A stretch of DNA of 64,000 bases from contig OY762007.1 of assembly GCA_963665115.1 (NCBI GenBank), positions 6,272,001 to 6,336,000 on the forward strand, in the 5' to 3' direction. A program made the position numbers and the translations under genes. The notes beneath the pieces are model-generated. The model searched no databases and was not told the DNA's origin. It was given only the letters and a program-made list of their open reading frames with translations. This document shows, piece by piece, positions 36,473 to 60,710 of this stretch; the stretch's first letter is position 1, and each line of letters begins with the position of its first letter. The stretch comes from an uncultured Rivularia sp. (GTDB lineage: Bacteria; Cyanobacteriota; Cyanobacteriia; Cyanobacteriales; Nostocaceae).

Positions 36473-37693
36473 CTACTCTTTACTTACTACTTTATACCTG
36501 TAACCAAGCTTTCTAAAATCCAACACCGAGGCTGGTGTAACGACTTCTTTCACTTTTATCAATAAAGATTTAATATTATTTAGTCCATAATCTCCAGGCT
36601 CAGATAATCCTCCATCCCAGGGCCACATTGGATCGTGAAGTTTATGTCCAAAAGGTACGTTTTTGGAGGGATAGAATTTTTCTCCGGTATGTCCTTTGTC
36701 TTGCCACTCTGCCCACAAACGGTCTACGTTGGAGTGAATTAACCAGAAAATTGGGTCGTAGGGGGAACTAGGAATGCTATCCATTGTACCCAAGATGCTG
36801 GTTTGTCTCATGGGGTTATCTTTATCGATGATGCTACCGCCGATAATTGAGTGAGCGCAAGCGTGTAATGTCCAACCTGGAATATATTCACCTTGGTTAA
36901 GTGTTAATGCTCCTTCTATTAATGCATTAAATATTTCGTAATTGTGGAATTTGAAAAGTTGTTCTATCGATGCTTTGGGTATGGGAGAATTACAAGGAGG
37001 CATCCCTACAAATCTAACTAATTTTGTTCCTAAAGATTTCATTCTAATCGGGTCAAAATGAATATTTTCGTTGAGTTTCCAGTCAGCGAAATTACCACTA
37101 GAAACAGCACCTCCTGTAAATTTACCAATACCAGGAATATCGATTGTGCTTCCTTTTCCGTTAGGACCTAAAAAGTCTTCTTGTAATATTACATCTAATG
37201 CTTTGGCATCAGTCCAATCCCAGTAAGGAACAGTTACAGTAGAATCAATCTTCTGTAATTCTTGCTCGAATTGATATAAAAATTGACGGTGCCAAGGTAA
37301 AAATGCTGGCTGTGCGTGAGCGGGATTTCCTTCGGCTTTCCCCGTCGCTCCCAATTTCTTACGAAACCCCATTGTTAAGACGTGTTGCAGCACAAATTGG
37401 TCGTAGAGGCTGATTTTGCTGTCTTTCGGAAATGTATTTTTTAATTTTTTGACTGCTTTTACAAAAGCTTGTTTTTCTGCTGGTGTGAGTTGAGTGACGC
37501 TTTTACGTATCTGGAGGTTATTGTTGGAAACAGTTTGGGGATAGATTAATTGTGGTACTTCTGCTGTTGGTGATGGGGGATGATAATAGCCGGAGTTGGA
37601 AAATATTCGATAAATTATAAAAATTATTATGGTTGTGATTATGGCTATTAGCGCAAATTTAATTAATGGTTTTTTTTTAATAAGATGAATCAT
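36473..37693 (-). CDS. Tyrosinase with N-terminal membrane anchor
   Basis: CuA H...AH..PAFLPWHR; CuB HACAH...DPIFWLIHSNVDRLW. Confidence 0.9.
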   Translation of the reverse strand: MIHLIKKKPLIKFALIAIITTIIIFIIYRIFSNSGYYHPPSPTAEVPQLIYPQTVSNNNLQIRKSVTQLTPAEKQAFVKAVKKLKNTFPKDSKISLYDQFVLQHVLTMGFRKKLGATGKAEGNPAHAQPAFLPWHRQFLYQFEQELQKIDSTVTVPYWDWTDAKALDVILQEDFLGPNGKGSTIDIPGIGKFTGGAVSSGNFADWKLNENIHFDPIRMKSLGTKLVRFVGMPPCNSPIPKASIEQLFKFHNYEIFNALIEGALTLNQGEYIPGWTLHACAHSIIGGSIIDKDNPMRQTSILGTMDSIPSSPYDPIFWLIHSNVDRLWAEWQDKGHTGEKFYPSKNVPFGHKLHDPMWPWDGGLSEPGDYGLNNIKSLLIKVKEVVTPASVLDFRKLGYRYKVVSKE

Positions 37694-39011: not shown

Positions 39012-39584
39012 GAGTTTTTATGACGATGGTGAAAAGGACAGCGATTAATAGATTTATTGTTAGGATCTATATGCTTGGTGCGAATTTGTCCGAACTTATT
39101 TAGAGTATCAACTGCCGAGCCTTTTTCAAACCGTAGACTACCTGCTTCATCTCCGCCAAATTTTTGACATACGGCTTTATGGTCTGTTACTAATTCAAAA
39201 TATGCTTCTACAAATTTTTGGTGTACGGATTCTAGTCCCCGGCGGTATATTCTTAAATGTAGGACTAAGACGCTTCCACAACTGCATCAAAGTAGCGTGT
39301 TCCCACGACATTAATCCACTAAAGTTGTCAGATTGAACGTAGGGGGGAGACATTTTTGGACGAATATGAGAATCGTATTCCTGTTTGCTGAAACTACCAG
39401 CAAGCTGCATTGATGCACCACTCGCTAACATTAAGTCAGTTGCAGTTTCTAATTCGGTTCGTGCTGTTGTTATATCACCCAGCAGCAAACTAGATTCAAA
39501 ACGACGCAGACAAATAATTAAGGCTTGAACATTAACAAAAAATGACCAGTGAAATCCTTTCCAAATTTCTTGTGTATTTAACAT
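39008..39584 (-). CDS. Putative heme-dependent aromatic hydroxylase (LmbB2/SfmD-like), +1 frameshift near 39238
   Basis: Y...IRP.M....FSG...EH...H..V..K...SL. The repaired ORF ends CPFHHRHKNS* and overlaps the MFS start (GTGA). Confidence 0.55.
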
Positions 39585-39678: not shown

Positions 39679-40146
39679 TTATTCGATAATTTCTAAGTGA
39701 TAAACCCTTGACAATAGAAGAATATAGCTGATGTATCCCTGTTTCTGTCGTTCAATTGCGAGTGAATCGAAATCATTATTCGGCTCGTTTAACAAAATAA
39801 ACATTCGATAAACCGCTAACATTAAACTTTTAACAATACACAAAGCGGGTTGTTGGCTTTCTACATGGTTTACATCAAAATGACCGTCAAAATCTTCAAT
39901 CTGCCAGCTTTTTAGTGCTGTTTTTGAAGAAGATATTTTTGCAGGAAATACATCTGGGGAAGCTAATTTGTATAATTCATCTTTAATAATCACAAGCGCA
40001 TCAGAAGCATCTACTTGTTTTAGCGCTTTCAATATCTGGCTAAGTGCTTGAGACAATTTAACTGTATCAGCTTCACTTAATTTTTCATCAAAAGGTAAAT
40101 CCCAAGGAACAAGCAAATCAAGCTGAAATTCATCATAATTGGCCAT
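39679..40146 (-). CDS. Hypothetical protein in the cluster
   Basis: 155-aa ORF with RBS GAGG, co-oriented within the operon. Confidence 0.75.
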   Translation of the reverse strand: MANYDEFQLDLLVPWDLPFDEKLSEADTVKLSQALSQILKALKQVDASDALVIIKDELYKLASPDVFPAKISSSKTALKSWQIEDFDGHFDVNHVESQQPALCIVKSLMLAVYRMFILLNEPNNDFDSLAIERQKQGYISYILLLSRVYHLEIIE

Positions 40147-40178: not shown

Positions 40179-40385
40179 TTAAGTATTAGAGGTAGATGCA
40201 TCCATTTTTTTTCGTAAACTAAGAGGTCGCATATCTGTCCATACTTCTTTAATATAATCTAGACACTCTTGTTTTGTACCTGTTTTCCCAGCCGAACGCC
40301 AACCATAAGGAATCTCACGATATTCAAACCAAATTGAATATTCTTCTTCTTCACTAATTACCACAGTATATATAGTATCTTCCAT
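40179..40385 (-). CDS. mbtH: MbtH-like NRPS accessory protein
   Basis: E..YSIW.....P.GW.....[16 protein letters not shown]. Confidence 0.95.
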
Positions 40386-41301: not shown

Positions 41302-42796
41302 TTAAAGGGGGGCTATAAATCCTGCTTGTTGTAATTCTTTTGCACTGTCTTTGAATGCTTGAATAATATTGTTAATATCTTCTTCGGTATGGGCTGTGGA
41401 AAGAAATCCGCCTTTGTCACCTTGTCGCAAATGAATTCCTTTCATGAGTAAATGAAATGACATTAAATTTGTCGCTATTGGGGAAATATTACTCTGGGAA
41501 TTATCTGCTGCAAAGAAGGAACCAAAGTGAGTATAAGTAAGAGGAATTCCTTCTTTTGTAAAGTAATTATTTAATTCTTTTACTAATTCAGATGTTCGCT
41601 TATTTAGCTTTTCCTGTAGCCCTACTCCTTCTGCTTTCAAATGCTCAAGTACGGCTTTTGATGCTGCTAAGGCTAATGGGTGTTTACAAAAAGTACCTGC
41701 AAAAAAGGTTGTTTTAGTTTGGGGAGCAGAATCATCACCGTAATTCCAAGTACCACCGTCGATGCTATCCATGTAAACAGCTTTACCCGCAATTACGGAC
41801 ATCGGTAAACCACCACCCACGATCTTGCTGTAGGTAACGATATCGGCATCAATATCAAACCAAGCTTGGGAACCACCCTGATGAATTCTAAATCCTGTCA
41901 CCATTTCATCAAAGATTAAGGCAATTCCAGCTTTTGAAGTTACACTTCGTAATTGCTGTAAAAATTCTCTGGGTTGTAATTGGGGACAGCGACTTTGTAC
42001 GGGTTTCCACTAATACCGCTGCTAACTGGTTTTTATTTGCTTCAATTACTTTTAATGACTGGGGATTTCCATAATCAAGCACCAACACGTTTTTTGCTAT
42101 ATCCTTGGGAATACCCGGTGCAGCAGGAACTCCTTTCGGACTAACGCTGTTTTTCAAACTTGATTGTATCGGACGCAATAAACCAGATATTAAACTACCA
42201 CTGGCGATTTTTCCTTCTAGTTTACGACTTGCAGCTTGTTTGGCATACTGGGCAATTGTCGCTCTAATTAAGGTACTATCCGAGTGTCCGTGATAAGAAT
42301 TTGTAAAAATAGCGATTTTATTGCGATTTGTTACGGTTCTAGCCATGCGAATCGCTGTCATGATGGCTTCTGTACCCGTATTGCTGAAAGTTGCTCTTTC
42401 TAATCCCGTTAATTCGCAGATGAGTTGAGCCACTTCACCAGCTAACTCGGCTTGGTATCCCATTGAGAAACCTTTATCCAATTGTGTGGCGATCGCCTTT
42501 TTGACAAATTCTGGATTGTGACCGAGTAAATTGATTCCCAAACCCATTAAAATATCGGTATACTCGTTGCCGTCAATATCCCAAAGTTTAGCACCAGCAG
42601 CCTTTTCCACAACAACTGGATAACATACCTCTTTTAATTCTGGAGAAAATCCCAATCCTAAAGAACTTTTATCTGCTAAAACCGGACGATAGGTTTGAGC
42701 ATAATTTTTCGATGCTTGGGTTCGCTTTGTATAGGATGCGATTAATTTTTCTAAATGTTGTGTTTGTAAATCGGTTTTATCTTTGGTTATCGTCAT
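41302..42796 (-). CDS. Class III PLP aminotransferase (GSA-aminomutase-like), +1 frameshift near 42004
   Basis: WDIDGNEY, NTGTEA, YHGH, repaired VEPVQSR, LIFDEMVTGFR, SKIVGGG, GTF. Confidence 0.88.
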
Positions 42797-42854: not shown

Positions 42855-43709
42855 CTAATTTTTACGACAAATGAAATAAGCCGAATGATTGTCATCTAAT
42901 TGTGTTTTTCCATCGATAGTTTTAATTTGAATTTGGGTAAATCCAATTTCTTCTAATGCTGCTTTGACTTCCTCTGGATAATATCCCCTAACTTCATAGG
43001 TAATGTCTGAACGCTGCCAATTCTCCCACTGTTGAAAGTTAGATAATACTTTAAGACGAAATCGAGTTAATAATTTCAAACTTAATAATTTATACAATAA
43101 CTGCTTCAAACTTCCTTTTCTTCTGACCTTAGTTAGAGTTTGAAAAAGTGTGACTTTAAAATCCCCCATTCTATTTGTAGAGTCATAATTTGGGGTAATA
43201 TACCAAGCAAGTTCATCTTCTATTTCACCTTCTGCAACTTGAGAATTCCACCATTTTTGCATTTGTTCTGCATGGTTTAAATCAAACATAAATAAACCAT
43301 TCGGCTTTAATGCATTGTAAACGCTACTAAAAACAGCCTTTAATTCGTCAATGCTCAAAATATGATTTAGTGAAGCACTACTAGAAACAACTCCATCAAA
43401 ACGTTCTGTAAGTTTAAAAGTGCGAGCATCTCCTAAAATAAATTCTCCCTGTGGTGCATTTTGATGAGCATAATCGAGCATCGCTTCCGAACCGTCTAAA
43501 CCCGTTACTTTGTATCCTCGCTGTAACAATGGCTGCATTAAATGTCCAGTTCCACAGCACAAATCTAGTAAATCTGCGTCTTTAGGTAGATGTGGTAGTA
43601 ACATGATTTCTACAGGCTTAAGTTGCTCCAAGCCATACTGCGGTCCCATTGTATGGTTGTACAGCCAAGCCCAGGTATCGTATTCAGAATAGCGATTGGT
43701 TTTCACCAT
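42855..43709 (-). CDS. Class I SAM-dependent methyltransferase
   Basis: LLDLCCGTG, GLDGS..ML, LKPNG.F. Confidence 0.92.
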   Translation of the reverse strand: MVKTNRYSEYDTWAWLYNHTMGPQYGLEQLKPVEIMLLPHLPKDADLLDLCCGTGHLMQPLLQRGYKVTGLDGSEAMLDYAHQNAPQGEFILGDARTFKLTERFDGVVSSSASLNHILSIDELKAVFSSVYNALKPNGLFMFDLNHAEQMQKWWNSQVAEGEIEDELAWYITPNYDSTNRMGDFKVTLFQTLTKVRRKGSLKQLLYKLLSLKLLTRFRLKVLSNFQQWENWQRSDITYEVRGYYPEEVKAALEEIGFTQIQIKTIDGKTQLDDNHSAYFICRKN

Positions 43710-43746
43710 AGTATTTATAATGCTTTGTCGGGAGTCAGTTTTACTT

Positions 43747-44256: not shown

Positions 44257-44426
44257 GGGCGTTGCTGGATTGAAAGGCGGGATTTATTTTTCTCATATTT
44301 AGTAGCCTCCTAAATCCCCTGCCCCCGTGACCCCCCAATTCTGGGGGTACTGGGGGACTTTAAATTATTTTTTTCCCCCAGAATTGGGGGTTGGGGGGCA
44401 AATCATATTTTTAATTAGCAACGCCC
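44257..44426. repeat. GC-rich interspersed element (related copy at about 30867-30985)
   Basis: GGGCGTTGCT...AGCAACGCCC ends; shared TAAATCCCC, GGGGACTTT and CCCCCA.AATTGGGGG cores. Confidence 0.65.
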
Positions 44427-44471
44427 GGTTTTGCATGGAAAAGATGATATTCACATAACGGAAAATTAACA

Positions 44472-47400
44472 ATGGTACAAGTCAGGCTTACTACCGAGAC
44501 TAACTATGACGGCGAACTTAACGCGCTGCTTGAAGACCAACAAAGTGCGTTAACTGTTAGCTTCTCGTTGGATGAACCAGCTCCCTCTGGAGGTTTGAAG
44601 GTTTATGTAGATAGCGATGTCGAGCAAATTGTCAACCGTTTGAATTTACCGGGATTTGGGGCTAATCCAATCGTGGAAAATATCAACCCGTCGTTGCTTG
44701 GGACTAATTTTGACAATTCTGGCTTTTTCCTCACTATTGATGAAGGGGCTACGAATGCAAGCTTTACGATTGATGTGTTTGATAATTCTGAACCCGATAC
44801 GTTTTTACCAGAAACTTTTGATGGTTTGGTAGAAGCGGTGTTTGAGCTAAAAACTCAAGAACAGGTGGATGCTCAAGATTTGGGGGATGTAGGCAATCTC
44901 AGCGATTATACAATTAACAGTAATGCAGCAACAAGTAGTGTATTATTTGCTGATGAGGAAAGCCAGCTTACCGAGCAGTCAGAGCCGCCGACAACGCTCC
45001 CGTCACCCGAACCCGGTACGTTGCAGCTGAGCCTTTTTGGAGGACCTAGTTACCTGGTTGAAGCTGAGGGAACGGTATCGGCTCATGCTTTTCTGGCTAC
45101 CAATGGGGTGCTTCCCGAAGGTGGGCTAAAAGTTTCGGTAAATGCGCCCAGTTTAAGCGAGTTTGACTTGGCAGGGGTTTCGGTTGAAGGTGGCGAGATT
45201 GCAGCGGTGCGCGACGGTGGTTTTGACCTGCTGATGACGGAGTACACGACGCTGGTGAATTTGCCGATTGCGGATGATGGGGAAACTGAAGCTGGGGAAA
45301 CAGCTAGTTTTAGTTTGGCTGCGGGTGATGGGTATGAAATCAATGAGAACTACAGTAGCAATACGTTTAATCTGGTGGATACGGAGGCGGATATTCCCCA
45401 AGGTGCAATCAGCGAACCTAACGATATTATTACTGAAGCAGTAGATACTCAAATTAGCCTTGAGAATCCTTCGTTTTCTGGCAGTGCGGATATCTACTTT
45501 GATCCCGGCAACCGCTACCGCAATCCAGACGGCACTTATACTTACATCGATTACAGTGAAGACGTTGACCTTTATAAAGTATCGTTAAGTGCAGGCGATA
45601 CTATTGCCATTGAAACCTTTGAAGGTGAAGGAAACCCGAATGGATGGGAGCGTGGTGTCGAACTTGCATCGCAAATATTTGATGCCCAAGGAAATGCGGT
45701 TCAAGATTATTCTGTCTCTGGATTTCGTCTCGATCCTGCTGCACCAGATAAGCTGTTTGGTGGTTTAGATTATCTCGATGAAAATAATACCGATACTTAC
45801 CAAGAATTTACTGCACCCGAAGACGGTGATTACTACGTCGCTTTCGGTTCGTTTTACAACGTAGCAAGATTTTACGCTGAAGCGAATGATTTAAGCCCTT
45901 ATGACCCTTTTGCACCAGGTTCGGGGGATGGTAATCGGGCAATGTTCGGCAACTACGGCATCGAAATCGATTTGCTGACGGAAAACAATCCGCGTCAAAC
46001 AGGTACTCCAACACCACCTGTAAGCAATCCTAATGTTACCAATCCGCCTACGCTGACCTTGACGGCTAACCCCTTTAATATAGATAGCGAAGGTAATCTC
46101 ACTAATGCGGTAGTAGAACGCGCTGAAGTTGATAGCATTTCTGGTGTTAACTTTACGATTGAAGCCGAAGGTGAAATACCTGAAGGTGGGATTGAATTGG
46201 TTCTCAATAGCGATGCTAATCTGTTTGATTACGTTTCACTCTATTCGCAGAATGACCTTCCTGTTACCTTTGGAGGACAGTCATTAGGTGCGTTTTACAA
46301 CGAAGAAGGTATTCCGACGGGAATTCGGCTACTTATTGAAGAACCTACGATGACCGTTAGCCTCGAAACTGCTGATAACCGCTTTTGGTTTCCAGAACTC
46401 TTTGGCAATATTATCGATGTATACGAGCCTTTAGAGACAGATGGCGCAGAAAACGTTAGCTTTTTCCTGCAACCAGGAGAAGAGGGCTATGAGATTGCTT
46501 CTGATAATGAAGCAGAAGTAACATACTACGATTCTTTAGAAGATGTCCCCGCGTCTACTGGTGGTAGCAGTGACATTGTTCCTGAAGTTGGCGTGACGGC
46601 TAGCGAGACACAACTGACTGAAACAGAAGAAACCGAAACTACGATTACCTTTACATTATCAGAAGCCCCACCCCCTGAAGGCATAGTAGTGTATATAGAT
46701 AGCGAAGACGACACGCTAGTTGGTAGCCCCCTCAGTCAGTTTGCTGTTTTAGAAGCTGAGATTAGTGGTGGCAATTTCCCGGTTCCAAATGCAGATTCCT
46801 CTGGCTTTTACTTCACCATTACCGAACAGACGGCTACCATAACATTTTCTGCTTTTGATGAGCTATCACTCGGTTTAAATCTTCCTCCAGAAACTTTCCA
46901 AGAAGGGATTGTAAATCTAAGCTTTTCTCTTCAACCACAAGCAGGCTACACTATTGACGGTAATGCTAGCGAAATAAACTTCACTATTGCCGATAATCCA
47001 GACTCGCAGATTCAGGTCGGTCTTGCTGGTGGTATTCAAACGAATGAAGAAGAGGTAGATGAATCAAGCACCACTTTAATCGAGTCAGAAAATACGGTTA
47101 GCGTTCACACCTTTAACCTCAGTGCGCCACCATCAGAAGAAGGCTTAACTGTTAGCGTTGGTGCAGATTCACTTGATGATTTTGACTTAGATGCTGTTGA
47201 AGTAACGGGAGGCAAGATTGCTGCTGTACGGGATGATGGTTTTGATTTGAACATTACCGAACAGGAAGCAACTATCGCCTTACCTGTCCTTGGTGACGGC
47301 ACTAATGAGGGCATCGAAACTGCAACCTTTACTTTAGAACCAGGTGACACCTACGAAATCAACCAGGCAGCAACTCAAGCTACTTTTACACTTGTTGAAA

Positions 47401-48453
47401 CCTTAGACCAAGTTAGTGTGGCAGAAGAAGTTGAACTTAACGACACGCTAGCTGAAGCGAATGCGTTAGGTTTGAGCTTGGATAACCCTTCTGTTTCTCT
47501 TAATGGCTCTATCAATAGAAACGGAAACACTGTTGATTATCCCGAAGATGTCGATTTATACTCATTCAATCTTGATGCTGGACAAACCGTCAGTTTGAAC
47601 ATTGACACAGAAGAAGTGCTTCCTGAAACGCTTGAATTTAGACCAATAGTATTTCCAGCGTTGGAAGAAACACTTCAAAAGCCAGATACAGAACTGCGCT
47701 TGTTTGATGCAGAAGGTAACGAACTCGCTGCGAATACTGATGGTGCAGCTCCCGATGAAGACTTCTCCCGCGACCCCCTATCTTGAGTTTACTGCCGAAA
47801 CAGCAGGGACTTACTACGTAGGCGTAAGCCAACTAGGCAACCGTAACTACGACCCCAACGTCATCAGAAGCGGTAGCGGTTGGACGTTCCCAGAGGTGGG
47901 CGTTTACTTTGGTCCTTACGATTTAACTGTCTCTTTAGAAGATGGTACTAACAACCCAGCGGAACCTACCGAACCCGTATTCGGCTCCTTAGAAGCAGAT
48001 ATTATCGAAGTCACCGGAACCAGTCAACTAATTTTCGGTGGTGATTCCGACGATTTAATCGACGCTTCTATTGGTAGCACGGGGAGCAACCGTATTTACG
48101 CTGGTAGCGGTGACGATACTGCAATCCTGGGAATGTCCGATAGAATTGTCGGTGGTGAAGGCGCTGATAAATTCTTCGCAACTTCTGGCGGTGATAATAT
48201 TCTTACCGGGGGTGCGGGTGCAGATCAATTCTGGATTGCCACAGCCGAAACTCCCGATGCAGCGAATATCATAACCGACTTTACCAGTGGCGAAGATGTC
48301 CTTGGTATTGCTGGCTTAGGAATCGGCTTTGATGATTTGAGTATTACCCAGCAGGATGATAACACTTTGATTGCTACGAATAATTCTGATTTAGCTATTT
48401 TGCAGGGTATTGCTGCCGATAGCTTGATTGTAGATAACTTTGCGTTTGGTTAA
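44472..48453 (+). CDS. Large acidic secreted/surface protein with PPC-like domains and an RTX-like tail, +1 frameshift near 47776
   Basis: Two EDVDLY...L.AG..(I/V) PPC-type units, duplicated beta-sandwich segments, GG.G.D repeats and ITDF..GED tail; no Sec signal. Confidence 0.8.
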
Positions 48454-48841
48454 GGAATAGTGAGGAGTGAGGAATTGGGAGTGAGGAATTAAAATTTCTA
48501 CCCCCTCTTCCCACTCTTCCCCTTCTACCCCCTCTCCCATCATTACCCAATCCCATCCAACCAAGTTTGTAAATCAATAGCTCAAACAATAAAGCCGGGT
48601 ATTGTTGAAAAAGTTAAGCCACTGCGTTGGCGAGGTTCCCTCGCTTAAAGCAAGTGGCGTTTAAAAGATTGAATCTCGACGCATGGAAATCAGTTATCAG
48701 TTATCAATTATCAATTAGGAGTTATGAGTGAGGAGTTAGAAGTTATTTATTCTTCCCCTTGTCTCCTTGTCTCCTTGTCTCCCTATCTTCCCATGCCCAA
48801 TTCCCAATTACCTATTACCAATTACCCATTACCATCCCCAA

Positions 48842-51800
48842 TCATTTCATCAAATAAGAAATATAAGTAGATAACAATTTTGCATCTATCGCCGGACAGA
48901 TAATCGATGTATCGGCAAGTCCACTGAAAGTATTATGAGCATCAAACTGTAAAGGCTTTGACTCGGTTGTACTATTGCTGGAATTGGCAGAAAATAAAGA
49001 AGCAATAGCATACAAAGGATGATTGGGAGAGTTTTTAATAATTTTCAGTAATTTTTCTCGCCATTGTTGGTAAGGAAGTCTTTCGACGGGATAACCCATT
49101 GAATCAAGTTGTTTGAATAATACTTCTACCGAAACTGGTTGGGGATGTACTAAATGGAAAACTTTTCCCCAAGATTCTGACTGTTTTGATAAATGAATTA
49201 TTGCCTGACTTACATAGTCTACTGGCATGATATCCAACATCATATTGCCAATTGGGGCGCTTCCTAGCTGCACGCAACCCTGAATCATTTTGTAGAGAAA
49301 ATCGTTTCTGTTAAAAACTCCGGTTTGGCTGTCTCCGCTGACTGCTCCGACACGATATATTGAAACTGGAAGATTTCTTTGACGGGCGATCGCCATTAAT
49401 TTTTCTGCTACCCATTTACTTTGAGCGTAACCACCAGCAGGGGTACGGTTTACGTCAAGGGGTTCGTTTTCGTGAATAATTTGGTTTGTACCAGCAAATA
49501 CGCTGATGGTTGAAATAAAGTGTACGGGTTTGACTTTGTTTTTACAAGCTAATCGCAAAACTTCTTGAGTTCCCAATACGTTAGTCGCTTTTAGTAATGA
49601 GTAGGGGGAGGTATGATGAACCCATGCACCGTTATGGTAAATAGTGTCAATTTCAGTAGAAAGTTGTTGAAACTGGCTTTGAGAAAGTCCTAATAATGGT
49701 TGAGATAAATCTCCGACAATAGGAATAATCCGGTTGCTAAATGATTCTTGCCATTGTTGGTAAAGATTATAGGATTTTGATACCTTTTTAATTTTATCTC
49801 TTGCCAATTCAGTATTTTTAGCTCGGATAAGACAGTGAATTTTAGCTTTAGTTGCTTGTAAAAGTTCGTGGAGAAGAAAAGCACCAACGAAACCCGTTGC
49901 TCCTGTAAGAAGAATGTTATCTAGAATAACTTGAGAAGGTATTGCATTTTCAGGTTGAATTGTTTCATCTAAAACAGCTTCCGCTTCTAAATCGAGTTTG
50001 CTATGATTAGCTCTCTCGTGCAAATATTGCACAATTTCTGGTTTACGCTGTTTTATCTCAGTTTTAATTTCGGCAGTTAAGCCACCTTTGGGAGCATTAC
50101 ACTTAAGTTTTGGTTCTCCTAAAGTATCTTGATTGTCTTCTACCCAGAGTTTGATATCTTTATTAGAAAGCTCTTTAAGAAACTCGTTAATTGACTTAGT
50201 TTCTTTCTGTACCGATACACTTGAATTTACTTGATTATTATAACTCCTCGTTCGCTTTATTTCTTTGCGTCCTTTGTGTCCTCTGCGGTTAGTTTCTCCT
50301 AAAATAATTTCCTTACAACCATACAAGCGCTCGCTGTAAATACCATCTTGCTTGCATTGCTCAACTAACTTATTAGACTCAAGAATCGGACGAGAATCAT
50401 CTGTATAATTAATTGATGTAATATAAGTCAACCAAGGCTCTTGTCCCATCGCATAAACATAAACCTGTTGCGGATGAAATTGATTGACTAAATTAAAGGC
50501 TTTTTGAGCATCAGAACCATCTAATCTTCGCGTCTGCGCCATTTTTCTAGGAACAGATTGCGTCAACAAAGAACCATAAGCCCATGTATAAGGAGCGCCA
50601 TCGCATTCCATACCAATAAACATGACATCTAAATCGCCCAAAAGACTATGTAAATTGCTATATAAAGCAGGTTCTATATTATTAGAATCAGCCGCACATA
50701 ATATTTTTCTACCTTTAATATTGAACCAATAAGCAGCTTTTGTAGCAATATTTAAGTCGCCATGTTCGCCAAGTACGGGCAATGCTATGATAAATCCGTC
50801 TTTTATTTCTATAGTCTCTAAATCATCAATTTCTTTGACATTATTAAAGCCAATTGCTGATAAAATTAACTTCAAAGAAGGGTCAATCAAAGCACCTTTA
50901 TTACCCTTCGGTACTACAACATTACGGATTTTATGCCGTAACTGTAGCAAAGTTTCCAACATTACATGGTCTTGGTGATTATGAGTAATTACAGCATAGT
51001 CAATTACTTCCGGTAAATCCGCATAGGTATAGCGAGGAATTCCAGCACGATGTTGATAACTAATTAGCGGGTCGCATAGTATAGTAGTATCTTGAGTTTC
51101 TATCAAAACACAAGCATGACCGAAGTAACGAACCCTAACATCATCACCTTGATAATTATTTGATTCAGGAGGTTTTTCGGTTGTAAATAAAGAAGAAAAT
51201 ACAGCTTCTTGATGATTTTTTATATCGAAAATTTCTTTGATTTCATGATAAGAATCTCCTTGATAACGCATCCGAAACAATCTATCCCAAGCAGGATGAT
51301 TAAATTTAAAATTGAGATGCAGCGTATGATTATCTGGTAAACGAGGGGTACTTAAAACAAAAGAGCGAGAATCTTCATCGGTCAGAGATAAAGCAATAGA
51401 TTGACAAGCAGTTTGATAATTTGAATTACGATATAAAAGACCTTCAATCAAACGAATTGCGGGATGATTGTTAGCATCATAAACAAGTTCTATATAACCC
51501 TTCAATTCTTCAGGAACTTGTTCGTATAAAGGCTCTAAAGAATATCCAGTTGCTTGCTCGCGTAAAATATTTTCTAAATCGTGAATTGCCGTACTTAACT
51601 TGATTAAATTAGCTTGTTCTGCCTTAGTTTTTGCCAATAAATCCTTAATTTCACCAACTTTATCAACATCATAATTAATAAAAGGTCCTCCCATCATCGC
51701 CGGATTTTGCAAAGCTGATTTATGCACTTGCGGAGCTTCGATAAAAGACTCCATAATTTTGATATGGGAATGTGTGATGTACATTGCCGCAGTTGCAGGT

Positions 51801-51886
51801 GGTACAAGGTATGACCAAGCATACCACTGGTTAATTAAAGGTTCGGCGATCGCGTTTGGTTTTAGATAAACTATATTATTGGGCAT
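48842..51886 (-). CDS. CmlA-like MBL-fold diiron beta-hydroxylase fused to a TubC-type docking domain and a thioester reductase
   Basis: EPLINQWYAWSYL.PP, YFGHACV, THNHQDH, GEHGDL; then L....IKLWVE...LKC.AP; then LLTGATGFVG, GYAQSKWVAE. Confidence 0.85.
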   Translation of the reverse strand: MPNNIVYLKPNAIAEPLINQWYAWSYLVPPATAAMYITHSHIKIMESFIEAPQVHKSALQNPAMMGGPFINYDVDKVGEIKDLLAKTKAEQANLIKLSTAIHDLENILREQATGYSLEPLYEQVPEELKGYIELVYDANNHPAIRLIEGLLYRNSNYQTACQSIALSLTDEDSRSFVLSTPRLPDNHTLHLNFKFNHPAWDRLFRMRYQGDSYHEIKEIFDIKNHQEAVFSSLFTTEKPPESNNYQGDDVRVRYFGHACVLIETQDTTILCDPLISYQHRAGIPRYTYADLPEVIDYAVITHNHQDHVMLETLLQLRHKIRNVVVPKGNKGALIDPSLKLILSAIGFNNVKEIDDLETIEIKDGFIIALPVLGEHGDLNIATKAAYWFNIKGRKILCAADSNNIEPALYSNLHSLLGDLDVMFIGMECDGAPYTWAYGSLLTQSVPRKMAQTRRLDGSDAQKAFNLVNQFHPQQVYVYAMGQEPWLTYITSINYTDDSRPILESNKLVEQCKQDGIYSERLYGCKEIILGETNRRGHKGRKEIKRTRSYNNQVNSSVSVQKETKSINEFLKELSNKDIKLWVEDNQDTLGEPKLKCNAPKGGLTAEIKTEIKQRKPEIVQYLHERANHSKLDLEAEAVLDETIQPENAIPSQVILDNILLTGATGFVGAFLLHELLQATKAKIHCLIRAKNTELARDKIKKVSKSYNLYQQWQESFSNRIIPIVGDLSQPLLGLSQSQFQQLSTEIDTIYHNGAWVHHTSPYSLLKATNVLGTQEVLRLACKNKVKPVHFISTISVFAGTNQIIHENEPLDVNRTPAGGYAQSKWVAEKLMAIARQRNLPVSIYRVGAVSGDSQTGVFNRNDFLYKMIQGCVQLGSAPIGNMMLDIMPVDYVSQAIIHLSKQSESWGKVFHLVHPQPVSVEVLFKQLDSMGYPVERLPYQQWREKLLKIIKNSPNHPLYAIASLFSANSSNSTTESKPLQFDAHNTFSGLADTSIICPAIDAKLLSTYISYLMK

Positions 51887-51984
51887 GGGGCATGGGGCAT
51901 TGGGCATTGTTAACTGATTTTAAATTCCATCTCCTTTCTTTCCTCTCCGCGTTCCTCCGCGAAAACCTCCGCGCTCCTTTGCGT

Positions 51985-54900
51985 TTAAAACTCCATCTCC
52001 TCTCTCTCCCCCTCAACATCACTCACAGAAACTTGAGTCAGCAAATTGATATCTATCCGCTCTGCTAATTCAGCAACAGTAGGAGCTTCAAACAAATCAA
52101 TTACAGTGATTTCAACATCAAATATCTTCAGCAACTGACCAATTAACTTGGTTGCTAATAAAGAATGTCCTCCTAATTCAAAGAAGTCATCTTCTACCCC
52201 TACTGTTTCTAGCTCAAGCACGCTGGTAAATATGTTAACTAACTTTTCTTCAGTCGGTGTCCGGGGTGCTACAAATGTTGATTCAGCGTTACCAAACCAA
52301 TCGGGAACAGGAAGGGATTTTGTATTAACTTTACCGTTGGGTGTGAGTGGTAAAGCATCTAGCATCACAAACGTAGCAGGAATCATGTAGTCTGCTAATT
52401 TTTCTTTTAACACACGACGTAATTCTGAAGATGTAGGAATTGTGGTTTTGCTTTCGGGAACGATATAAGCGACTAAGCGTTTGTCACCGGGGTTATCTTC
52501 TCGAACTATGATAAGGCTGGCTTGGATACCGGGATATTGATTTAGTAAAGCTTCGATTTCCCCGATTTCAATCCGAAAACCGCGAATTTTTACTTGATTA
52601 TCGATTCGACCAAATAATTTAATGCTACCGTCTGGGAGATAACAGGCTAAGTCTCCGGTTTTGTATAACCTCACCCCCATCCCCTCTCCTTGTAAAGGAG
52701 AAGGGTGTCCGAATTTCCCCTCTCCTTGATAAGGAGAGGGGTGTCCGCAAGGACGGGGTGAGGTTTTATCATTAAACGGATTAGGTATAAATTTTTCGGC
52801 TGTCAAATCTGGTCGATTCAAGTAACCTCGCGCTAAACCGACACCTGCGATGTGGAGTTCGCCAAGTACCCCGACTGGTAAGGGTTGTAGATTATTATCT
52901 AATATATAAAGTTGTTTGTTGGTACTCGAACGCAATACGGGTAAAATCGGATTTCCGTTGCCACACTCTACCATGCTGGCGTTGACGGTAACTTCTGTCG
53001 GGCCGTAAGCGTTAATAAATTTTCGTTTTTGCGACCATTTTGTTATTAACTCGGGGGATGGTGCTTCACCTCCAACTAATACCATTTTCAGGGCTGGTAA
53101 TTCTTCAACGGGTAAAGCTGATAATGCTGAAGGTGTAATGGTGATGTGAGTAACTTGTTTTTCTCGCAACAGTTTTAGTAAGGGAAGTCCGGGAATTACA
53201 TCTTCTAAGGATGCAAGACAAAGTTTAGCACCACTAGCTAATGCCATAATGATTTCTGGAATTGAAGCATCGAAACTAAATGAGAAGAATTGCAGTATAC
53301 AGCTATCGGAATCAACATCACAAACGCGGATTTTATCTTCTGTTAAATTAGTTAATCCCCGATGAGGAATAAGTACACCTTTGGGTTTTCCTGTCGAACC
53401 GGAGGTATAGATTAGATATGCGAGATTGTCGGTTGTGACTCCGCTTTGAGGATTTTGATAATCTGAACTACTATTATTATCTTCCCAAAAACTATCAAGA
53501 TTAATTAATATTTTCTGCATTTCTATCGGAATTATTCCGAATTCCTCTTCTTCCCTCTTCCTCAGCGTCCTCTGCGACTCTGCGGTTTTTTTATCTTTCC
53601 CAAGTTTGCTAGAGGGGGAATTAGTTGTAATCTGTTCGGCTACATCAGTAGTTTTCCCATGAGTCAATAATAAAGATATTTGAGCATCTTCGACCATAAA
53701 TGCTAATCTTTCTATAGGATATGCCGGATCGAGAGGAACATATGCACCACCGGCTTTGTGTATTGCAAGCATGGCAATAATAATTGCTGGAGAGCGTTGA
53801 ATGCAAATCCCGACTCGTACTTCTGGTGATACTCCTAAAGTTTGTAAATAATGAGCGAGTTGATTGCTGCGGTGATTTAATTCTTGATAGGTAAGTTGTT
53901 CGTTGTTATAGATTATTGCGATCGCATCACTGTTTTTTTCTACCTGGGCTTCAAATAGTTGATGGAAACATAAATCTTGAGAAAATTCTTTTTGCGTCTG
54001 ATTCCATTCCACCAAGATTTGCTGCTCTTCGCTGGGAGTTAGTAACGGTAAATCTCCTATACGCTGCGTTGGTTGATTCGCAATACCTTCTAACAACGTG
54101 CAGAAATGTCCAACCATCCGCTTAATAGTTGATTCTGCAAATAAATCAAGGTTATATTCAAATCCTCCCACTAATCCATCGGGAGTTTCGTACATATCCA
54201 AGCTTAAATCTAATTTGGCGCTAGCATTTACCTGTCCCAAAGAACTTAAAGTTAAACCCGGTATTTCTATTTTCTCTGCTGGTGGATTTTCTAATCTAAA
54301 TTTGATTTGAAACAAGGGGTTGTAGCTCAAATCTCGTTCTGGATGCAATTCTTCTACTAACTTCTCAAATGGTAAGTCTTGATGGTCGTAAGCACCCCAA
54401 GTTACTTGACGCACCCGCTGTAATACCTCTTGAAATGTCGGATTTCCATTTAAGTCAGTCCGTAACACCAAAGTATTAACAAAAAAGCCAATTAACCCTT
54501 CTAATTCAGCCCGATTCCGATTAGCGATGGGAGAAACCAACGATAATATCTGCTTGTCCGGTGTAGCGATAGAGCAGAACTTTGAATGCAGCCAGCAGAG
54601 TCATAAATAAGGTTGCTCCCTCAGAAGAAGCAATGCTTTTTAATTTATTGCTGAGTTCCGATGAAAGCTTAAACGAAACCGTATCACCTCGAAAACTTTG
54701 GACTCTAGAACGAGGAAAATCTGTAGGTAATTGAATTACTGGTAAAGTACCTCCTAGCTGTTGCTTCCAGTAGCCAAGCTGCGTTGCTAATACTTCCCCC
54801 TGCAACCATTGACGCTGCCAAACTGCAAAATCAGCATATTGAATTGATAATGGTTCTAAAGGAGACGAAATGCCCTGAGATAAAGCTGCATATAAAGTTG

Positions 54901-55570
54901 CAATTTCCTTTACTAAAACTTCCATTGACCAGCCATCAGAAATGATATGATGCATGGTTAGAAGTATAACTTTTTCAGTTGCTCCGAGTTCTAATAAAGT
55001 GACTCGTAAAAGCAAATCTTGTTCTAAATCAAAGGGTTTTTGAGCTTCCGCGATCGCAATTTGCTTAACTTTGATTTCTTGTTCTGCTTTTGGTATAAGT
55101 TGAAGATTAATTGGGTGTATAACTAATTCTTTATTCGGAGCAATAACTTGAATTAATTCTTCGTCAATAGTTTTAAAATTAGTGCGGAGAATTTCATGAC
55201 GTTGAATAATTGTATTAAGAACTTGTTGTAAAACTTCAACGTTTAATTCACCAGTAAGACGAACTGCTGTAGGAATATGATATACAGAACTACCTGGTTG
55301 CAGTTGTTCGAGAAACCATAGTCTTTGTTGAGCAAAAGATAAAGGTAATTTATTATTTCGTGAGGTAGTTGGGATGGAAGTAACTTTTTGATTAACTAAA
55401 TTTGCTTGTTTTAGAAAAGCGATAATTTCGGGTTTACGGGTTTGTAATTGAGCGGTAACTTCTGGTGTAAGAATGTCATCGGGAGCGCTACAACGTAATT
55501 TTGTGTCATCTTCGAGCCATAATTTCACGTCGAAGGTGTGGAGATGGGTGAGAAATTGTTCTATATTCAT
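51985..55570 (-). CDS. NRPS terminal module: docking-C-A-PCP (aromatic-type A domain), +1 frameshift near 54534
   Basis: [41 protein letters not shown]; hand-read code DAPTLGAVNK. Confidence 0.9.
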
Positions 55571-55686
55571 GAGATTTTTTTATAAACCGCAGAGGGCGCA
55601 GAGGGCGCAGAGGAAGAGTTTGTAGAGACGTTATATATAACGTCTCCCAAATTTTACTGAAAAAACAAACCAGTCAACACGAATTA

Positions 55687-56388
55687 TTATTCAATTTTCC
55701 AAGCTTTTTCTATCGCAATATATCCTTGAATATCGTACTCTTTTAATTGTTTTCTATTAAAAGGATAAAAATCATTTTCACCAAAGTAAGCTTCTGATAG
55801 TTCTGCAAAATACTCGGATTTATTTGTTAAAGCATAAGCATCTTTCGGTTTCTTACCGTGATTTTTAGGTACTTTTTTATATAAACCGGAATTTAGGGCA
55901 TGATTATAAGCATCAATAATTGGTTGAAAATCTTTACCAATAATTCTATCGTGATAAGCATGAGCTAGTTCGTGTAAGACGTGCCAAGGTTGGGTTTTTG
56001 TTCTGGAAATAAAATTGCGGATATTGCTAATTTCGACAGCTTTAGCTTTCTCTGGATTATAACCATGATTTCTCAACCATTTTGCAGAAGGATGGTAAAC
56101 CATTCCTGAAAAACCCTGAATATCTTTTTCCACCCAGATAGTCACGTTTTTGAGAAATTCATGGTGTTTTCGAGAAACAACACGCTCAACATTTTTTAAT
56201 TTTATATCGAGTAAAGCAATTGCGTCTTTGGTAATTTGTTTTTCTTCTTTCCAAAGTTTACGATTAATTTTAACTTTCCAGCCTTGAATATTTTTAGTTT
56301 CATATTCTGAGTTGCTAAATCCGCAACTGAATAGAAAAATTAAAATTAAAAAGCTGATTGAAGAAAATGCCAGCCAAAAAATCTTCAT
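55687..56388 (-). CDS. Exported zinc metallopeptidase-like protein
   Basis: N-terminal hydrophobic signal; HELAH plus downstream EYFAE. Confidence 0.75.
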   Translation of the reverse strand: MKIFWLAFSSISFLILIFLFSCGFSNSEYETKNIQGWKVKINRKLWKEEKQITKDAIALLDIKLKNVERVVSRKHHEFLKNVTIWVEKDIQGFSGMVYHPSAKWLRNHGYNPEKAKAVEISNIRNFISRTKTQPWHVLHELAHAYHDRIIGKDFQPIIDAYNHALNSGLYKKVPKNHGKKPKDAYALTNKSEYFAELSEAYFGENDFYPFNRKQLKEYDIQGYIAIEKAWKIE

Positions 56389-56392
56389 TTTC

Positions 56393-57338: not shown

Positions 57339-60300
57339 TTACAATTCAATTTCTTTACGCCCTGTGGTTGGGGTGTTGGGGTTTTTCATTGATTGTATGG
57401 TGATTTGTAAGGCTTGGATATGTTCGGCGATCGCCACAATTGTCGGTTTCTCAAAAATGCTTCTCAACGGTAAATCTAGCTCAAAGGTTTGCCGTAAACG
57501 GGAGTTTATCCGAGTCGCTAAAAGCGAGTTACCACCTAAATCAAAGAAGTTATCGTAAATTCCAACTTGCTCTAGTTTTAAAACTTCCTTCCAGATGGTA
57601 GCAATGGCTTCTTCGCTAGAGTTACGCGGTGGCACCCTGTGGAGTAATTTTACACCTATTTCATCCACTGCGAGCAAAGAACGTCTATCGATTTTACCGT
57701 TGGATGTCAGTGGTATGGATTCCAAAATTACAAATGCAGAAGGTACCATATAACTAGGTAACTTTGCTTCTAAGAAAGAGCGCAAAAAAGTTTTTAGTTC
57801 ATCCGTTGCATCCGTTGCTGTTTCTGCTTGAATAGGAACAACATAAGCAACAAGACGTGAATTATTGTTTTGATTTTGGCTTTGATATTCTTTCGCAATA
57901 ACTACAGCAGTTTTAACTTCCGGGTGTTGCAACAATACAGCTTCAATTTCCCCTAGCTCAATCCGGAAACCGCGAATCTTCACCTGATAGTCAATCCTTC
58001 CTAGAAATTCTATGTTCCCATCGGGTAAATAACGTGCTTTATCTCCGGTTTTATAAAGAGCGGAGGGGGCAGAGGGGGTAGAGGGGGTAGAGGGGGTAGA
58101 AAATGGATTTGGTATAAATCTTTCTGCGGTTAAATCGGGACGCTTAAGATACCCGCGTGCTAAACCATCACCCCCGATGTATAATTCTCCCGCGACTCCA
58201 ATGGGAACCTGACGCAGGTGAGAATCGAGAATGTAAATTTGGGTATTGTGGATGGGAGTACCAATGGGGAGAGTGTGAGAGGGGGAAGAGGGGGAAGAGG
58301 GGGAAGAGGGGGAAGAGGGGGAAGAGGGGGAAGAGGGGGAAGAGGGGGAAGAGGGGGAAGAGGGGGAAGAGGGGGAAGAGGGGGAAGTAATTTCTTTTTC
58401 AACCTTCAATTCTCCTTGTCCCTTTGTCTCCTTGTCCCCTTGTCGTCTTCCAATTCCCCATGCCGTCACATCAATTGCGGCTTCTGTGGGGCCGTAAAGG
58501 TTATGTAGTTGAGCATCAAGACGATTAAAGAAACGGTTTTGTAATTCAATTGTCAATGCTTCACCGCTACAAATAACCTGCTTAAGAGATTTACACGATT
58601 CTAATTGTGGCTCTTCCAGAAAAGCTCCGAGCATAGAAGGAACAAAATGCACTGTGGTAATTTGTTGCTCTTTAATTAAATTTACTAAATATCCACTGTC
58701 TTTGTGTCCTCCCGGTTTGGCTATTATTAAAGTTGAACCAAATAATAATGTCCAGAAAAATTCCCAAACCGAAACGTCAAAACTAAAAGGTGTTTTTTGC
58801 AAAACTCGGTCATCGGCTGTGAGTTGATAGGTTTGCTGCATCCACCACAGCCGATTTACTAAGCCGCGATGGGTGTTGATTACTCCTTTTGGTTTTCCCG
58901 TTGAACCTGATGTATAAATTACGTAAATGCTGTTTGCTAAACTTGTGGTATTTACTGAATTAATTTCAGGTAATTGAGCAGCATATGATAGAATTTCTGT
59001 AATTTTTTCTTGAGTTAAAACCGTTTTTACTTGAGTTTCTTCCTTTATAAAATCTAATCGTTGTTGGGGATATTCTGGATCGAGGGGGACATAAGCACCA
59101 CCCGCTTTCAAGATAGCAAGGATACCAATTACCATTTCTAAAGAGCGCTCTAAACTGATACCAACTAAAACTTCTGGTTTTACTCCGATGCTTCGTAGAT
59201 AATGCGCTAATTGATTGGCTTTAGTATTAAGCTCTTGATAGGTAAGCTTTTCATCCTCAAAAATTACCGCAGTTGCATTCTTATTACGCTCAACTTGTGC
59301 TGCAAATAATTCGTGGATGCATTGCTGCGGATATTCAGCTTCAGTTGAATTCCACTCTGCTAATAACTGCTGTTGTGCATCTGTGAATACGGGCAATTCT
59401 ATCAAAGATTGTTGGGGATTATTCGCAATATTTTCTAAAAGAGTATAGAAACTCACGAATAAATTAGTAATTGTTAAATCATCGAAGCGTTGTGAATCAT
59501 ATTTAATTTTAAAATTAAGTTCATTCGCTGCTGAAACCAGCATTGTCAAAGGAAAACTTGTCCATTCTAAGGAATTTACTTTTTCAATTTTTAGTTCATT
59601 TTGAGACTTTAATAATGAAGCATCAACTGGATAATTTTCAAATACTAAAATATGCTCAAACAGCGTTGAACCTCGGGGAATTTCGCTCCAGCTTTGAATT
59701 TCTAATAAGGGACTATATTCGTACTGTAATGCTTCTATTTGTTGAGTTTGCAGTTGTTGTAACCAGGTAATTAATGATGCTTGGGGGTCAATTTGTACTC
59801 GTACTGGTAGAGTATTGATAAATAATCCTACCATTGCTTCAGACCCAGAAAGTGTAGCCGGACGACCGGAACTTGTAGCACCAAAAACGATATCATCTTG
59901 ATTGCAATACCGACTCAAAAGAATAGCAAAAGCCCCTTGAATCAAAGTGTTGAGAGTAAATTGATGGTTTTTGGCTAAATTTTTGAGAGTAGTAGTGATG
60001 CTTGCTGGTAAAGAGATTTCCTTTTCAGTCCAATTAGTTTTTGTCGAATTTGACGACGATTGTTTAACTTGCACCATATTTGGTGTAGTAAATCCCTGAA
60101 GTTGAGTTTTCCAAAATGTCTTTGCTGCTGATAAATCTTGCTGTCCCAACCAAGCAATATATTCAGCATAAGGACGACTATTATAAATTGGTAAATCTGC
60201 ACCGTTGTGAAATACTTGATATAGCCCAAAAACTTCTTTGAGAACTAATCCTGCTGACCAACCATCGATAATTAAATGGTGTTGCGTCCAAACAAATTGA

Positions 60301-60710
60301 TAGCGAGTTTCTGTTAGTTGAATTAAATTTATACGGAATAAAGGCGGAATTTTGAGGTCAAATCTCTGCTTTCTATCCTCTTCCAGAAAATCCTCTAACT
60401 TTTGCTGTTGTTCTGATATTGAAAATTCTCGCCAATCCTGCTGTTGCCAAGGTAATTCTAAAACTTTATATACTACCTGAAAAGCTTCGTCTCTTTTTTC
60501 CCAACGAAAAGCCGTGCGTAATATAGAATGTCGTCTAAATACTTCTGACCAAGCTTTTTGAAAAGCAATTACATCTGTTAACCCATCAACAGTAATACAA
60601 ACCTGCGGTACATAAGCACCAGCTTCCGGCGCAAGCAAGCTGTGAAATAGTATACCTTGCTGCATCGGTGAAAGGGGATATATATTTTCAATATTTTTTT
60701 GTTTATTCAT
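57339..60710 (-). CDS. NRPS module C(DCL-type)-A(Ser)-PCP
   Basis: IYPLSPMQQG, HHLIIDGWS; hand-read code DVWHISLIDK (Ser); FFDLGGNSL. Confidence 0.93.
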   Translation of the reverse strand: MNKQKNIENIYPLSPMQQGILFHSLLAPEAGAYVPQVCITVDGLTDVIAFQKAWSEVFRRHSILRTAFRWEKRDEAFQVVYKVLELPWQQQDWREFSISEQQQKLEDFLEEDRKQRFDLKIPPLFRINLIQLTETRYQFVWTQHHLIIDGWSAGLVLKEVFGLYQVFHNGADLPIYNSRPYAEYIAWLGQQDLSAAKTFWKTQLQGFTTPNMVQVKQSSSNSTKTNWTEKEISLPASITTTLKNLAKNHQFTLNTLIQGAFAILLSRYCNQDDIVFGATSSGRPATLSGSEAMVGLFINTLPVRVQIDPQASLITWLQQLQTQQIEALQYEYSPLLEIQSWSEIPRGSTLFEHILVFENYPVDASLLKSQNELKIEKVNSLEWTSFPLTMLVSAANELNFKIKYDSQRFDDLTITNLFVSFYTLLENIANNPQQSLIELPVFTDAQQQLLAEWNSTEAEYPQQCIHELFAAQVERNKNATAVIFEDEKLTYQELNTKANQLAHYLRSIGVKPEVLVGISLERSLEMVIGILAILKAGGAYVPLDPEYPQQRLDFIKEETQVKTVLTQEKITEILSYAAQLPEINSVNTTSLANSIYVIYTSGSTGKPKGVINTHRGLVNRLWWMQQTYQLTADDRVLQKTPFSFDVSVWEFFWTLLFGSTLIIAKPGGHKDSGYLVNLIKEQQITTVHFVPSMLGAFLEEPQLESCKSLKQVICSGEALTIELQNRFFNRLDAQLHNLYGPTEAAIDVTAWGIGRRQGDKETKGQGELKVEKEITSPSSPSSPSSPSSPSSPSSPSSPSSPSSPSSPSSPSHTLPIGTPIHNTQIYILDSHLRQVPIGVAGELYIGGDGLARGYLKRPDLTAERFIPNPFSTPSTPSTPSAPSALYKTGDKARYLPDGNIEFLGRIDYQVKIRGFRIELGEIEAVLLQHPEVKTAVVIAKEYQSQNQNNNSRLVAYVVPIQAETATDATDELKTFLRSFLEAKLPSYMVPSAFVILESIPLTSNGKIDRRSLLAVDEIGVKLLHRVPPRNSSEEAIATIWKEVLKLEQVGIYDNFFDLGGNSLLATRINSRLRQTFELDLPLRSIFEKPTIVAIAEHIQALQITIQSMKNPNTPTTGRKEIEL
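58278..58386. repeat. In-frame 9-bp tandem repeat (GAGGGGGAA)x12 inside the NRPS A domain
   Basis: Encodes (SPS)n. Confidence 0.9.

What the first reader, a model, noticed from the sequence alone, without database searches (positions are those of the whole stretch)
48842..51886. Three-part release enzyme: CmlA-type beta-hydroxylase, internal docking domain, thioester reductase
The N-terminal ~535 aa resemble the chloramphenicol diiron beta-hydroxylase CmlA, which acts on PCP-bound aromatic residues. A TubC-like docking domain sits mid-protein, matching the type at the start of the previous NRPS, whose C-terminus EREEMEF resembles the RKEIEL tail of the Ser module. An SDR reductase without a PCP follows. 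Inference: one trans-acting protein hydroxylates the last residue and releases it as an aldehyde, possibly giving a hydroxylated chromophore.
Basis: partly seen in the sequence, partly recalled or inferred. Interest (0 to 1): 0.7.

Follow-up and report, generated by a model that had tools for sequence, protein, structure and literature searches.

The report
Hydroxylase-dock-reductase end of cyanobacterial siderophore
This gene joins an iron-type hydroxylase, a docking domain and a reductase in one protein that likely clips onto the last carrier of an iron-chelator assembly line, likely adds an oxygen to its DOPA residue and likely releases the chain, so many cyanobacteria would make a hydroxylated, still undescribed version of the anachelin chelating group.

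Summary
ORF 48842-51907 (-) has a diiron beta-hydroxylase domain (closer to FrsH than CmlA; seven aligned iron-ligand residues kept in 117 of 118 homologues), an internal TubC-type dock and a thioester reductase, with no carrier domain.

It sits in the cassette that builds the Dmaq catechol of anachelin/fabrubactin-type siderophores: DOPA-type module, this gene, methyltransferase, aminotransferase, split heme peroxygenase. The anachelin-type line instead has one dock-C-A-T-R protein and no such hydroxylase in its genome.

The three-part form is common: 16 of 20 Dmaq-type genomes in a 401-genome survey. Relatives carry split versions, each half with its own dock. Dock charge mirrors the tails: basic dock with acidic EREEMEF, acidic dock with RKEIEL.

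A 55% identical homologue is BAB74340.1, recalled as All2641 of the Anabaena PCC 7120 siderophore cluster, whose product had no structure in a 2019 review.

Likely mechanism: hydroxylation of carrier-bound DOPA, later release as aldehyde. The scan noted this architecture three times before on other DNA. Verdict: new variant of a known kind.

The parts
48842..51886 (-). Three-part gene: diiron hydroxylase, dock, thioester reductase (1014 aa; frame open to 51907)
50300..51886 (-). CmlA/FrsH-type diiron beta-hydroxylase domain; H309, H311, D313, H314, E381, D407, E434
50015..50191 (-). Internal TubC_N beta-hairpin docking domain with the basic P-K signature
48842..49918 (-). Thioester reductase (TGATGFVG; T800, Y827, K831), no carrier domain
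51985..55570 (-). Last NRPS module dock-C-A-T, code DAPTLGAVNK (likely L-DOPA); split in this assembly by one extra base at 54534
51988..52008 (-). C-terminal tail EREEMEF, predicted partner of the internal dock
55406..55570 (-). N-terminal dock of the last module with the acidic P-D-D signature
57339..60710 (-). Ser-type module (DVWHISLIDK; assignment of the code recalled) ending GRKEIEL
42855..43709 (-). SAM-dependent methyltransferase of the cassette
41302..42796 (-). Class III aminotransferase; split in this assembly by one extra base at 42004
40179..40385 (-). MbtH-like protein (label from a recalled motif and from MbtH genes annotated at the same place in L081 and L082; not scanned against a family)
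39679..40146 (-). FbnL-like half of a split heme peroxygenase (label inferred)
39195..39584 (-). FbnM-like half; matches SfmD 6VDP residues 187-278; cut short in this assembly by one extra base near 39237
36473..37693 (-). Tyrosinase, an accessory gene seen in 4 of 34 loci with room

Best explanation
The protein is a carrier-less hydroxylase-dock-reductase in a Dmaq-type siderophore cassette that likely binds the EREEMEF tail of the last NRPS module, likely beta-hydroxylates the residue on that carrier (likely L-DOPA) and likely releases the finished chain as an aldehyde. The split heme peroxygenase would supply L-DOPA. By analogy with FrsH, hydroxylation would come before condensation and reduction after it, one dock serving both steps. 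The aminotransferase and methyltransferase would turn the aldehyde into a dimethylamine, and oxidative ring closure would give a Dmaq ring with an extra OH at C4 (+16 Da). Shown: domains, conserved residues, gene order, tail and dock patterns, split variants. Inferred: every chemical step, the binding, the product and the electron donor (none identified).
For: Seven aligned ligand residues kept in 117 of 118 homologues covering them; E381 aligns with the residue changed in the CmlA E377D structure. Hydroxylase more conserved than reductase in 111 of 112 homologues, medians 63% and 51%. MT and AmT follow in 34 of 34, FbnM-like in 33 of 34 fused loci with 6 kb downstream; DOPA-type A motif upstream in 40 of 45. 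Same A code as the fused module of G406, P0215 and Agrobacterium L082. Residue after the beta-2 proline: D/E in 45 of 48 N-terminal docks, K/R in 66 of 67 internal docks, K in 3 of 3 stand-alone dock-R proteins; tail position -5 is E in 51 of 52 DOPA tails and K/Q/R in 23 of 23 Ser tails kept. Split forms: hydroxylase-dock plus separate reductase in L013, L014, L016, L027, L028; dock-R with no CmlA_N in the genome in L089/G281; hydroxylase-dock right after the DOPA-type module in L073. FrsH and CmlA act on carrier-bound amino acids, hydroxylation before acylation (PMC7794379 passages).
Against: No product, assay or expression data for any cluster of this form. The nearest solved relative acts on leucine, so the family does not fix the substrate. 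The nearest solved reductase is MxaA, recalled as a four-electron enzyme giving an alcohol; the aldehyde rests on the neighbouring aminotransferase. T800 is Ala in 14 of 120 homologues. DOPA specificity rests on code identity and a secondary account of fabrubactin; L083 has a different code by my script. In the five split loci the DOPA module is not inside the DNA held, and they may be close kin. SLiM-dock pairs are known to be promiscuous. A benzylic OH on a catechol may not survive into the final product.
Confidence: 0.62

Rival explanations
1. The beta-OH is made but is cryptic: it is lost as water after ring closure, giving an unsaturated, more conjugated quinolinium chromophore (-2 Da against Dmaq).
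For: General chemistry of benzylic alcohols on catechols (own knowledge); all genomic evidence for targeting fits equally.
Against: No extra dehydratase-like gene was seen in the conserved cassette; nothing specific points to it.
Confidence: 0.14
2. The hydroxylase acts on another residue of the line and is fused to the reductase only as a convenient anchor.
For: Stand-alone relatives lie beside other modules, for example one with code DASTIAAVCK (L091); FrsH serves several modules.
Against: When split from the reductase it keeps its own P-K dock; the matching tail occurs once in the genome; it follows the DOPA-type module even where the line goes on (L073).
Confidence: 0.1
3. The diiron domain does another oxidation needed for the ring: catechol to quinone, ring hydroxylation of Tyr, or desaturation.
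For: The oxidant for ring closure is not evident in the cassette; tyrosinase is present in only 4 of 34 loci.
Against: Four genomes with the fused anachelin-type module and 3 of 20 Dmaq-type genomes have no CmlA_N match; FbnL/FbnM-like genes stay in place; the characterised family members I read about are beta-hydroxylases.
Confidence: 0.09
4. The hydroxylase domain is an inactive passenger and the product is plain Dmaq.
For: It is dispensable in anachelin-type lines, and architectures switch repeatedly on the reductase tree.
Against: Ligands kept in 117 of 118; more conserved than the reductase in 111 of 112.
Confidence: 0.05

Closest known systems
Terminal Dmaq module of anachelin (P0215, AFZ60772.1, Anabaena cylindrica; cluster of Calteau 2014, PMC4247773)
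   Same: Dock-C-A-T with code DAPTLGAVNK, reductase 57% identical, then MT, AmT and the FbnL/FbnM-like pair.
   Different: One 1519-aa dock-C-A-T-R chain; no tail after the carrier, no second dock, no CmlA_N match in G406, the genome that encodes P0215 letter for letter.
Fabrubactin-type clusters (Agrobacterium L082, Allorhizobium L083; fabrubactin known to me from PMC12971057 passages only)
   Same: Same cassette order; luciferase-like monooxygenase 62% identical to the one in this genome's cluster.
   Different: Fused module of about 1520 aa; no hydroxylase hit in the 41 kb held. The A. fabrum C58 cluster itself was not examined.
FrsH (PDB 8A90) and CmlA (PDB 4JO0, 5KIK)
   Same: Whole two-domain fold (TM 0.94 and 0.91 by target length, 40% and 37% identity) and the metal-ligand motif.
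   Different: They are stand-alone, without dock or reductase; substrates are leucine and, by recall, p-aminophenylalanine.
SLiM / beta-hairpin docking pairs (TubC, Kj12, AerJ; review PMC9113145)
   Same: Fold and short C-terminal tail; best PDB match of the dock is AerJ 8AQQ (E 0.002); docks on reductases and one tail recruiting two partners are already described.
   Different: Described at N-termini; here the dock is internal, between two enzymes, or C-terminal on the hydroxylase. The passages read list no beta-hydroxylase.
P0208 (BAB74340.1; recalled as All2641 of the Anabaena PCC 7120 cluster all2641-all2649)
   Same: Same three-part protein, 55% identical over 1015 columns; last of a nine-ORF NRPS/PKS run in G745 with much the same module codes.
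   Different: Named only thioester reductase or polyketide synthase by its sources; the cluster's product had no structure in the 2019 review.

Membership tests
CmlA/FrsH diiron beta-hydroxylases | CmlA_N plus metallo-beta-lactamase fold | tested here: met
   Pfam E 9.5e-96; fold search TM 0.91-0.95
CmlA/FrsH diiron beta-hydroxylases | Seven iron ligands HxHxDH, E, D, E (the full list is recalled; E377 is named in PDB 5KIL) | tested here: met
   Identical in alignment to both structures; 117 of 118 homologues
CmlA/FrsH diiron beta-hydroxylases | O2-dependent beta-hydroxylation of a carrier-bound amino acid | not testable with these tools
   Needs an assay
NRPS thioester reductases | Rossmann GxxGxxG and T/S-Y-K triad, whole-domain match | tested here: met
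   TIGR01746 above cut-off; G, Y, K in 120 of 120
NRPS thioester reductases | Stops at the aldehyde | not testable with these tools
   Inferred from the aminotransferase in 34 of 34 loci
SLiM / beta-hairpin docking pair | alpha-beta-beta-alpha-alpha domain | tested here: met
SLiM / beta-hairpin docking pair | Conserved short charged tail after the carrier of the partner | tested here: met
SLiM / beta-hairpin docking pair | Physical binding of this dock to this tail | not tested
Dmaq siderophore cassette (anachelin/fabrubactin type) | Reductase, MT, AmT and two-protein heme peroxygenase beside an NRPS | tested here: met
   described. The antiSMASH FbnL/FbnM profiles were not available
Dmaq siderophore cassette (anachelin/fabrubactin type) | Terminal A domain with the code of the anachelin module | tested here: met
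   DAPTLGAVNK by my motif script
Anachelin-type terminal module | Reductase in cis after the carrier, no hydroxylase | tested here: not met
Dmaq siderophore cassette (anachelin/fabrubactin type) | Iron-binding product, made under iron limitation | not testable with these tools
   A TonB-dependent receptor lies in the cluster; no product or RNA data

The most novel reading that the evidence does not exclude
The commonest cyanobacterial Dmaq siderophores are not anachelin-like but carry a hydroxylated or dehydrated chromophore that has not been described, made by a plug-in unit (tail, hydroxylase, dock) that splits the last carrier from its reductase and has been gained or lost several times; one internal dock serves two enzymes, with specificity set by a charge swap. 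The unsolved PCC 7120 siderophore and those predicted for Crocosphaera watsonii and Nodularia spumigena would be of this kind.
Probability: 0.5. Interest if true: 0.68.

Novelty: new variant of a known kind. Interest (0 to 1): 0.5.

Why it matters
It gives a concrete chemical prediction (+16 Da, or -2 Da after water loss, on the Dmaq end) for siderophore clusters of widespread nitrogen-fixing cyanobacteria, among them one in a genetically tractable model strain whose product was still unsolved in 2019. For enzyme engineering it shows a docking domain used internally for two catalytic domains, with natural fused and split versions and an apparent charge code for tail choice. All parts and the pathway are known kinds, which limits the surprise.

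Tried and rejected
Complex prediction of dock with tail: not available; no verdict.

Vinnik 2021 (fabrubactin), Makris 2010, Kaniusaite 2019 and one recalled PMC id were not held; nothing of them or their supplements was seen.

Paper searches that found no description of this fusion: CmlA + reductase domain + NRPS + diiron (one listed, seen as listings only), Fbn gene names or Dmaq (30 of 98 listed, unrelated but for the Reitz papers), hairpin docking + SLiM + thioester reductase + lactamase (1 review), FrsH + CmlA, CmlA + E377 (0), all2641 (1), hydroxylase + tetrahydroquinolin + siderophore (0), FrsH recruitment (0). The library lacks most subscription papers.

No RNA holder was listed; no statement on expression.

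My first reading, a plain orthologue of the anachelin/fabrubactin release gene, was rejected: those lines have no hydroxylase.

The idea that the cluster is decayed was rejected for the four breaks checked. Breaks outside 37500-57400 were not checked.

A single clade of three-part reductases was rejected; gain against loss was not resolved. The first tree run did not finish; one comparison failed on frame and was not repeated. Fatuamide A (PMC11877528 passages) was irrelevant.

Full report
Observation. The frame at 48842-51907 (-) is open for 1021 aa; the database copy starts at 51886 and has 1014 aa. Pfam and NCBIfam give CmlA_N at 14-244, an MBL fold at 258-431, TubC_N at 573-631 and a thioester reductase at 664-1021, with no carrier domain. 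The best solved relatives are 8A90 (468 bits) and CmlA (383 bits) for the N-terminal part and MxaA (339 bits) for the reductase. The model from a 30-sequence alignment shows three folded units with a disordered linker before the dock; its fold search names 8A90 as FrsH and 5KIL as the CmlA E377D mutant, and that residue aligns with E381 here. The seven aligned ligand positions (full list recalled) are kept in 117 of the 118 proteins that cover them; 2 of 120 do not cover them.

Context. Downstream lie a methyltransferase, a class III aminotransferase, an MbtH-like gene, two small genes of which one matches the heme peroxygenase SfmD (E 1.8e-4) and the other an Agrobacterium 'siderophore biosynthesis protein' (26%), then a tyrosinase and a thioesterase. 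Beyond the window the genome holds further NRPS and PKS genes, an acyl-AMP ligase-type starter, a luciferase-like monooxygenase and a TonB-dependent receptor. This matches the genes assigned to the Dmaq end of anachelin (PMC4247773, passages; PMC6562677, passages) and the FbnL/FbnM route to L-DOPA in fabrubactin (PMC12971057, passages). Single extra bases at 39237, 42004, 47774 and 54534 are absent from runs X2 and X3 at full depth and present in X1, and three relatives lack the one at 54534; I read them as assembly errors.

Spread. Of the best 120 of 1240 protein hits, 118 carry all three Pfam domains; the list is ranked by score and so favours this form. Of 77 loci, 52 have hydroxylase and reductase motifs in one frame; the other 25 are split, cut by contig ends, frameshifted or stand-alone. 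Among the 34 fused loci with 6 kb downstream, 34 have MT and AmT and 33 the FbnM-like gene; 40 of 45 with 3 kb upstream show the DOPA-type A motif. In 401 genomes of the order, 40 match the FbnM-like gene. Twenty fall in the top tier (E at most 2e-44, short frames); the other 20 (weaker, frames of 340-407 aa) were set aside. Of the 20, 16 have CmlA_N in a frame of 1002-1062 aa (fusion inferred from length), 1 only in a 613-aa frame and 3 not at all. Kin are not independent. Named carriers include Nodularia spumigena, Crocosphaera watsonii, Gloeocapsa PCC 7428, Methyloversatilis and Aquincola.

Comparison with the known lines. P0215 (Anabaena cylindrica) is one dock-C-A-T-R chain. G406 encodes it letter for letter, shows Thr, Ser-E, Ser and DAPTLGAVNK modules followed by MT, AmT and the FbnL/FbnM-like pair, and has no CmlA_N match; nor do G411, G407 and G749. 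Agrobacterium, Allorhizobium and Acaryochloris plasmid clusters are of the same fused kind. The A code is the same in both kinds by my motif script (L083 differs; amino-acid assignments of codes are recalled). The hydroxylase is therefore an addition to a known cassette, not a requirement for it.

Docking. Tails of DOPA-type modules have E at -5 in 51 of 52; Ser-module tails have K, Q or R there in 23 of 23, after a filter that kept only tails ending in the E-x-x-hydrophobic pattern. The residue after the beta-2 proline is D/E in 45 of 48 N-terminal docks, K/R in 66 of 67 internal docks and K in 3 of 3 stand-alone dock-R proteins. In the solved rhabdopeptide complex the last five tail residues pair with beta-2 (PMC9113145, passages); that this residue touches position -5 is my inference. 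Natural permutations exist: hydroxylase-dock plus separate reductase (L013, L014, L016, L027, L028; a dock detected on the reductase in four of the five), dock-R without hydroxylase (L089) and hydroxylase-dock after a DOPA-type module with other modules following (L073). The hydroxylase keeps a P-K dock when alone, which points it at the DOPA carrier. Binding itself was not tested.

History. On reductase trees the fused and three-part forms are intermixed (139 rows, at least 5 changes forced by starred branches; about half of the three-part rows were left out). Monophyly of the three-part form is rejected on 33 rows picked after seeing that tree (p-AU 2.5e-37). The architecture has switched several times; direction is not resolved.

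Mechanism. Likely order: L-DOPA is loaded; the three-part protein docks; the diiron site hydroxylates C-beta, before condensation if it behaves like FrsH (PMC7794379, passages); the chain is condensed; the reductase releases an aldehyde; amination, N,N-dimethylation and oxidative ring closure give a 4-hydroxy-Dmaq end. All of this chemistry is inferred. Against it: the nearest solved relative acts on leucine, no electron donor is identified, the aldehyde rests on gene neighbourhood, and the OH may be lost as water.

A testable case. P0208 (BAB74340.1) has the same three parts at 55% identity. G745 encodes it letter for letter as the last of nine NRPS/PKS-type ORFs, with module codes much like this genome's cluster. 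By recall this accession is All2641. [quoted passage not shown]

Novelty. My paper searches found no description of the fusion, but the fabrubactin paper, the docking survey and their supplements could not be read and may mention it. Verdict: new variant of a known kind, interest 0.5.

Noticed in passing
window 44472-48453 (+), and about 84-123 kb in window coordinates beyond the window: More than ten large, acidic, mutually similar proteins ending in an ...NFAFG/A motif are interleaved with the siderophore genes; the window copy has weak PPC and calcium-binding repeat hits. Proteins with similar ends flank the cluster in L013, L016, L027, L028.
   Followed up: no
window 56393-57304 and 55687-56388 (-): A 2OG-Fe(II) oxygenase and a small HELAH zinc-peptidase-like gene sit between the Ser and DOPA modules; found in only 2 of 77 loci (L005, L007).
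   Followed up: partly
window 39237, 42004, 44331, 47774, 52749, 54534: Single extra bases against runs X2 and X3; many other ORFs of the region look frameshifted, so this assembly likely has indel errors.
   Followed up: partly
window 40441-40770 and 41001-41258 (-): Two small conserved ORFs before the MbtH-like gene; the first has a Pfam CBF_beta hit (E 8.7e-09) and is annotated 'MbtH domain protein' at the like place in L081.
   Followed up: no
P0096: A 1342-aa homologue also carries methyltransferase domains, a four-part fusion.
   Followed up: no
L073:6465-21861: In a Verrucomicrobiales contig the DOPA-type module and hydroxylase-dock are followed by further NRPS genes; no reductase lies in the DNA held.
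   Followed up: partly
window 57339-60710, 51985-54540 and upstream NRPS genes: Short low-complexity repeats (such as SPSSP runs) are inserted in frame within A domains.
   Followed up: no
G238 C9 and C125: One genome holds two Dmaq-type cassettes, one with the fused and one with the split hydroxylase.
   Followed up: partly
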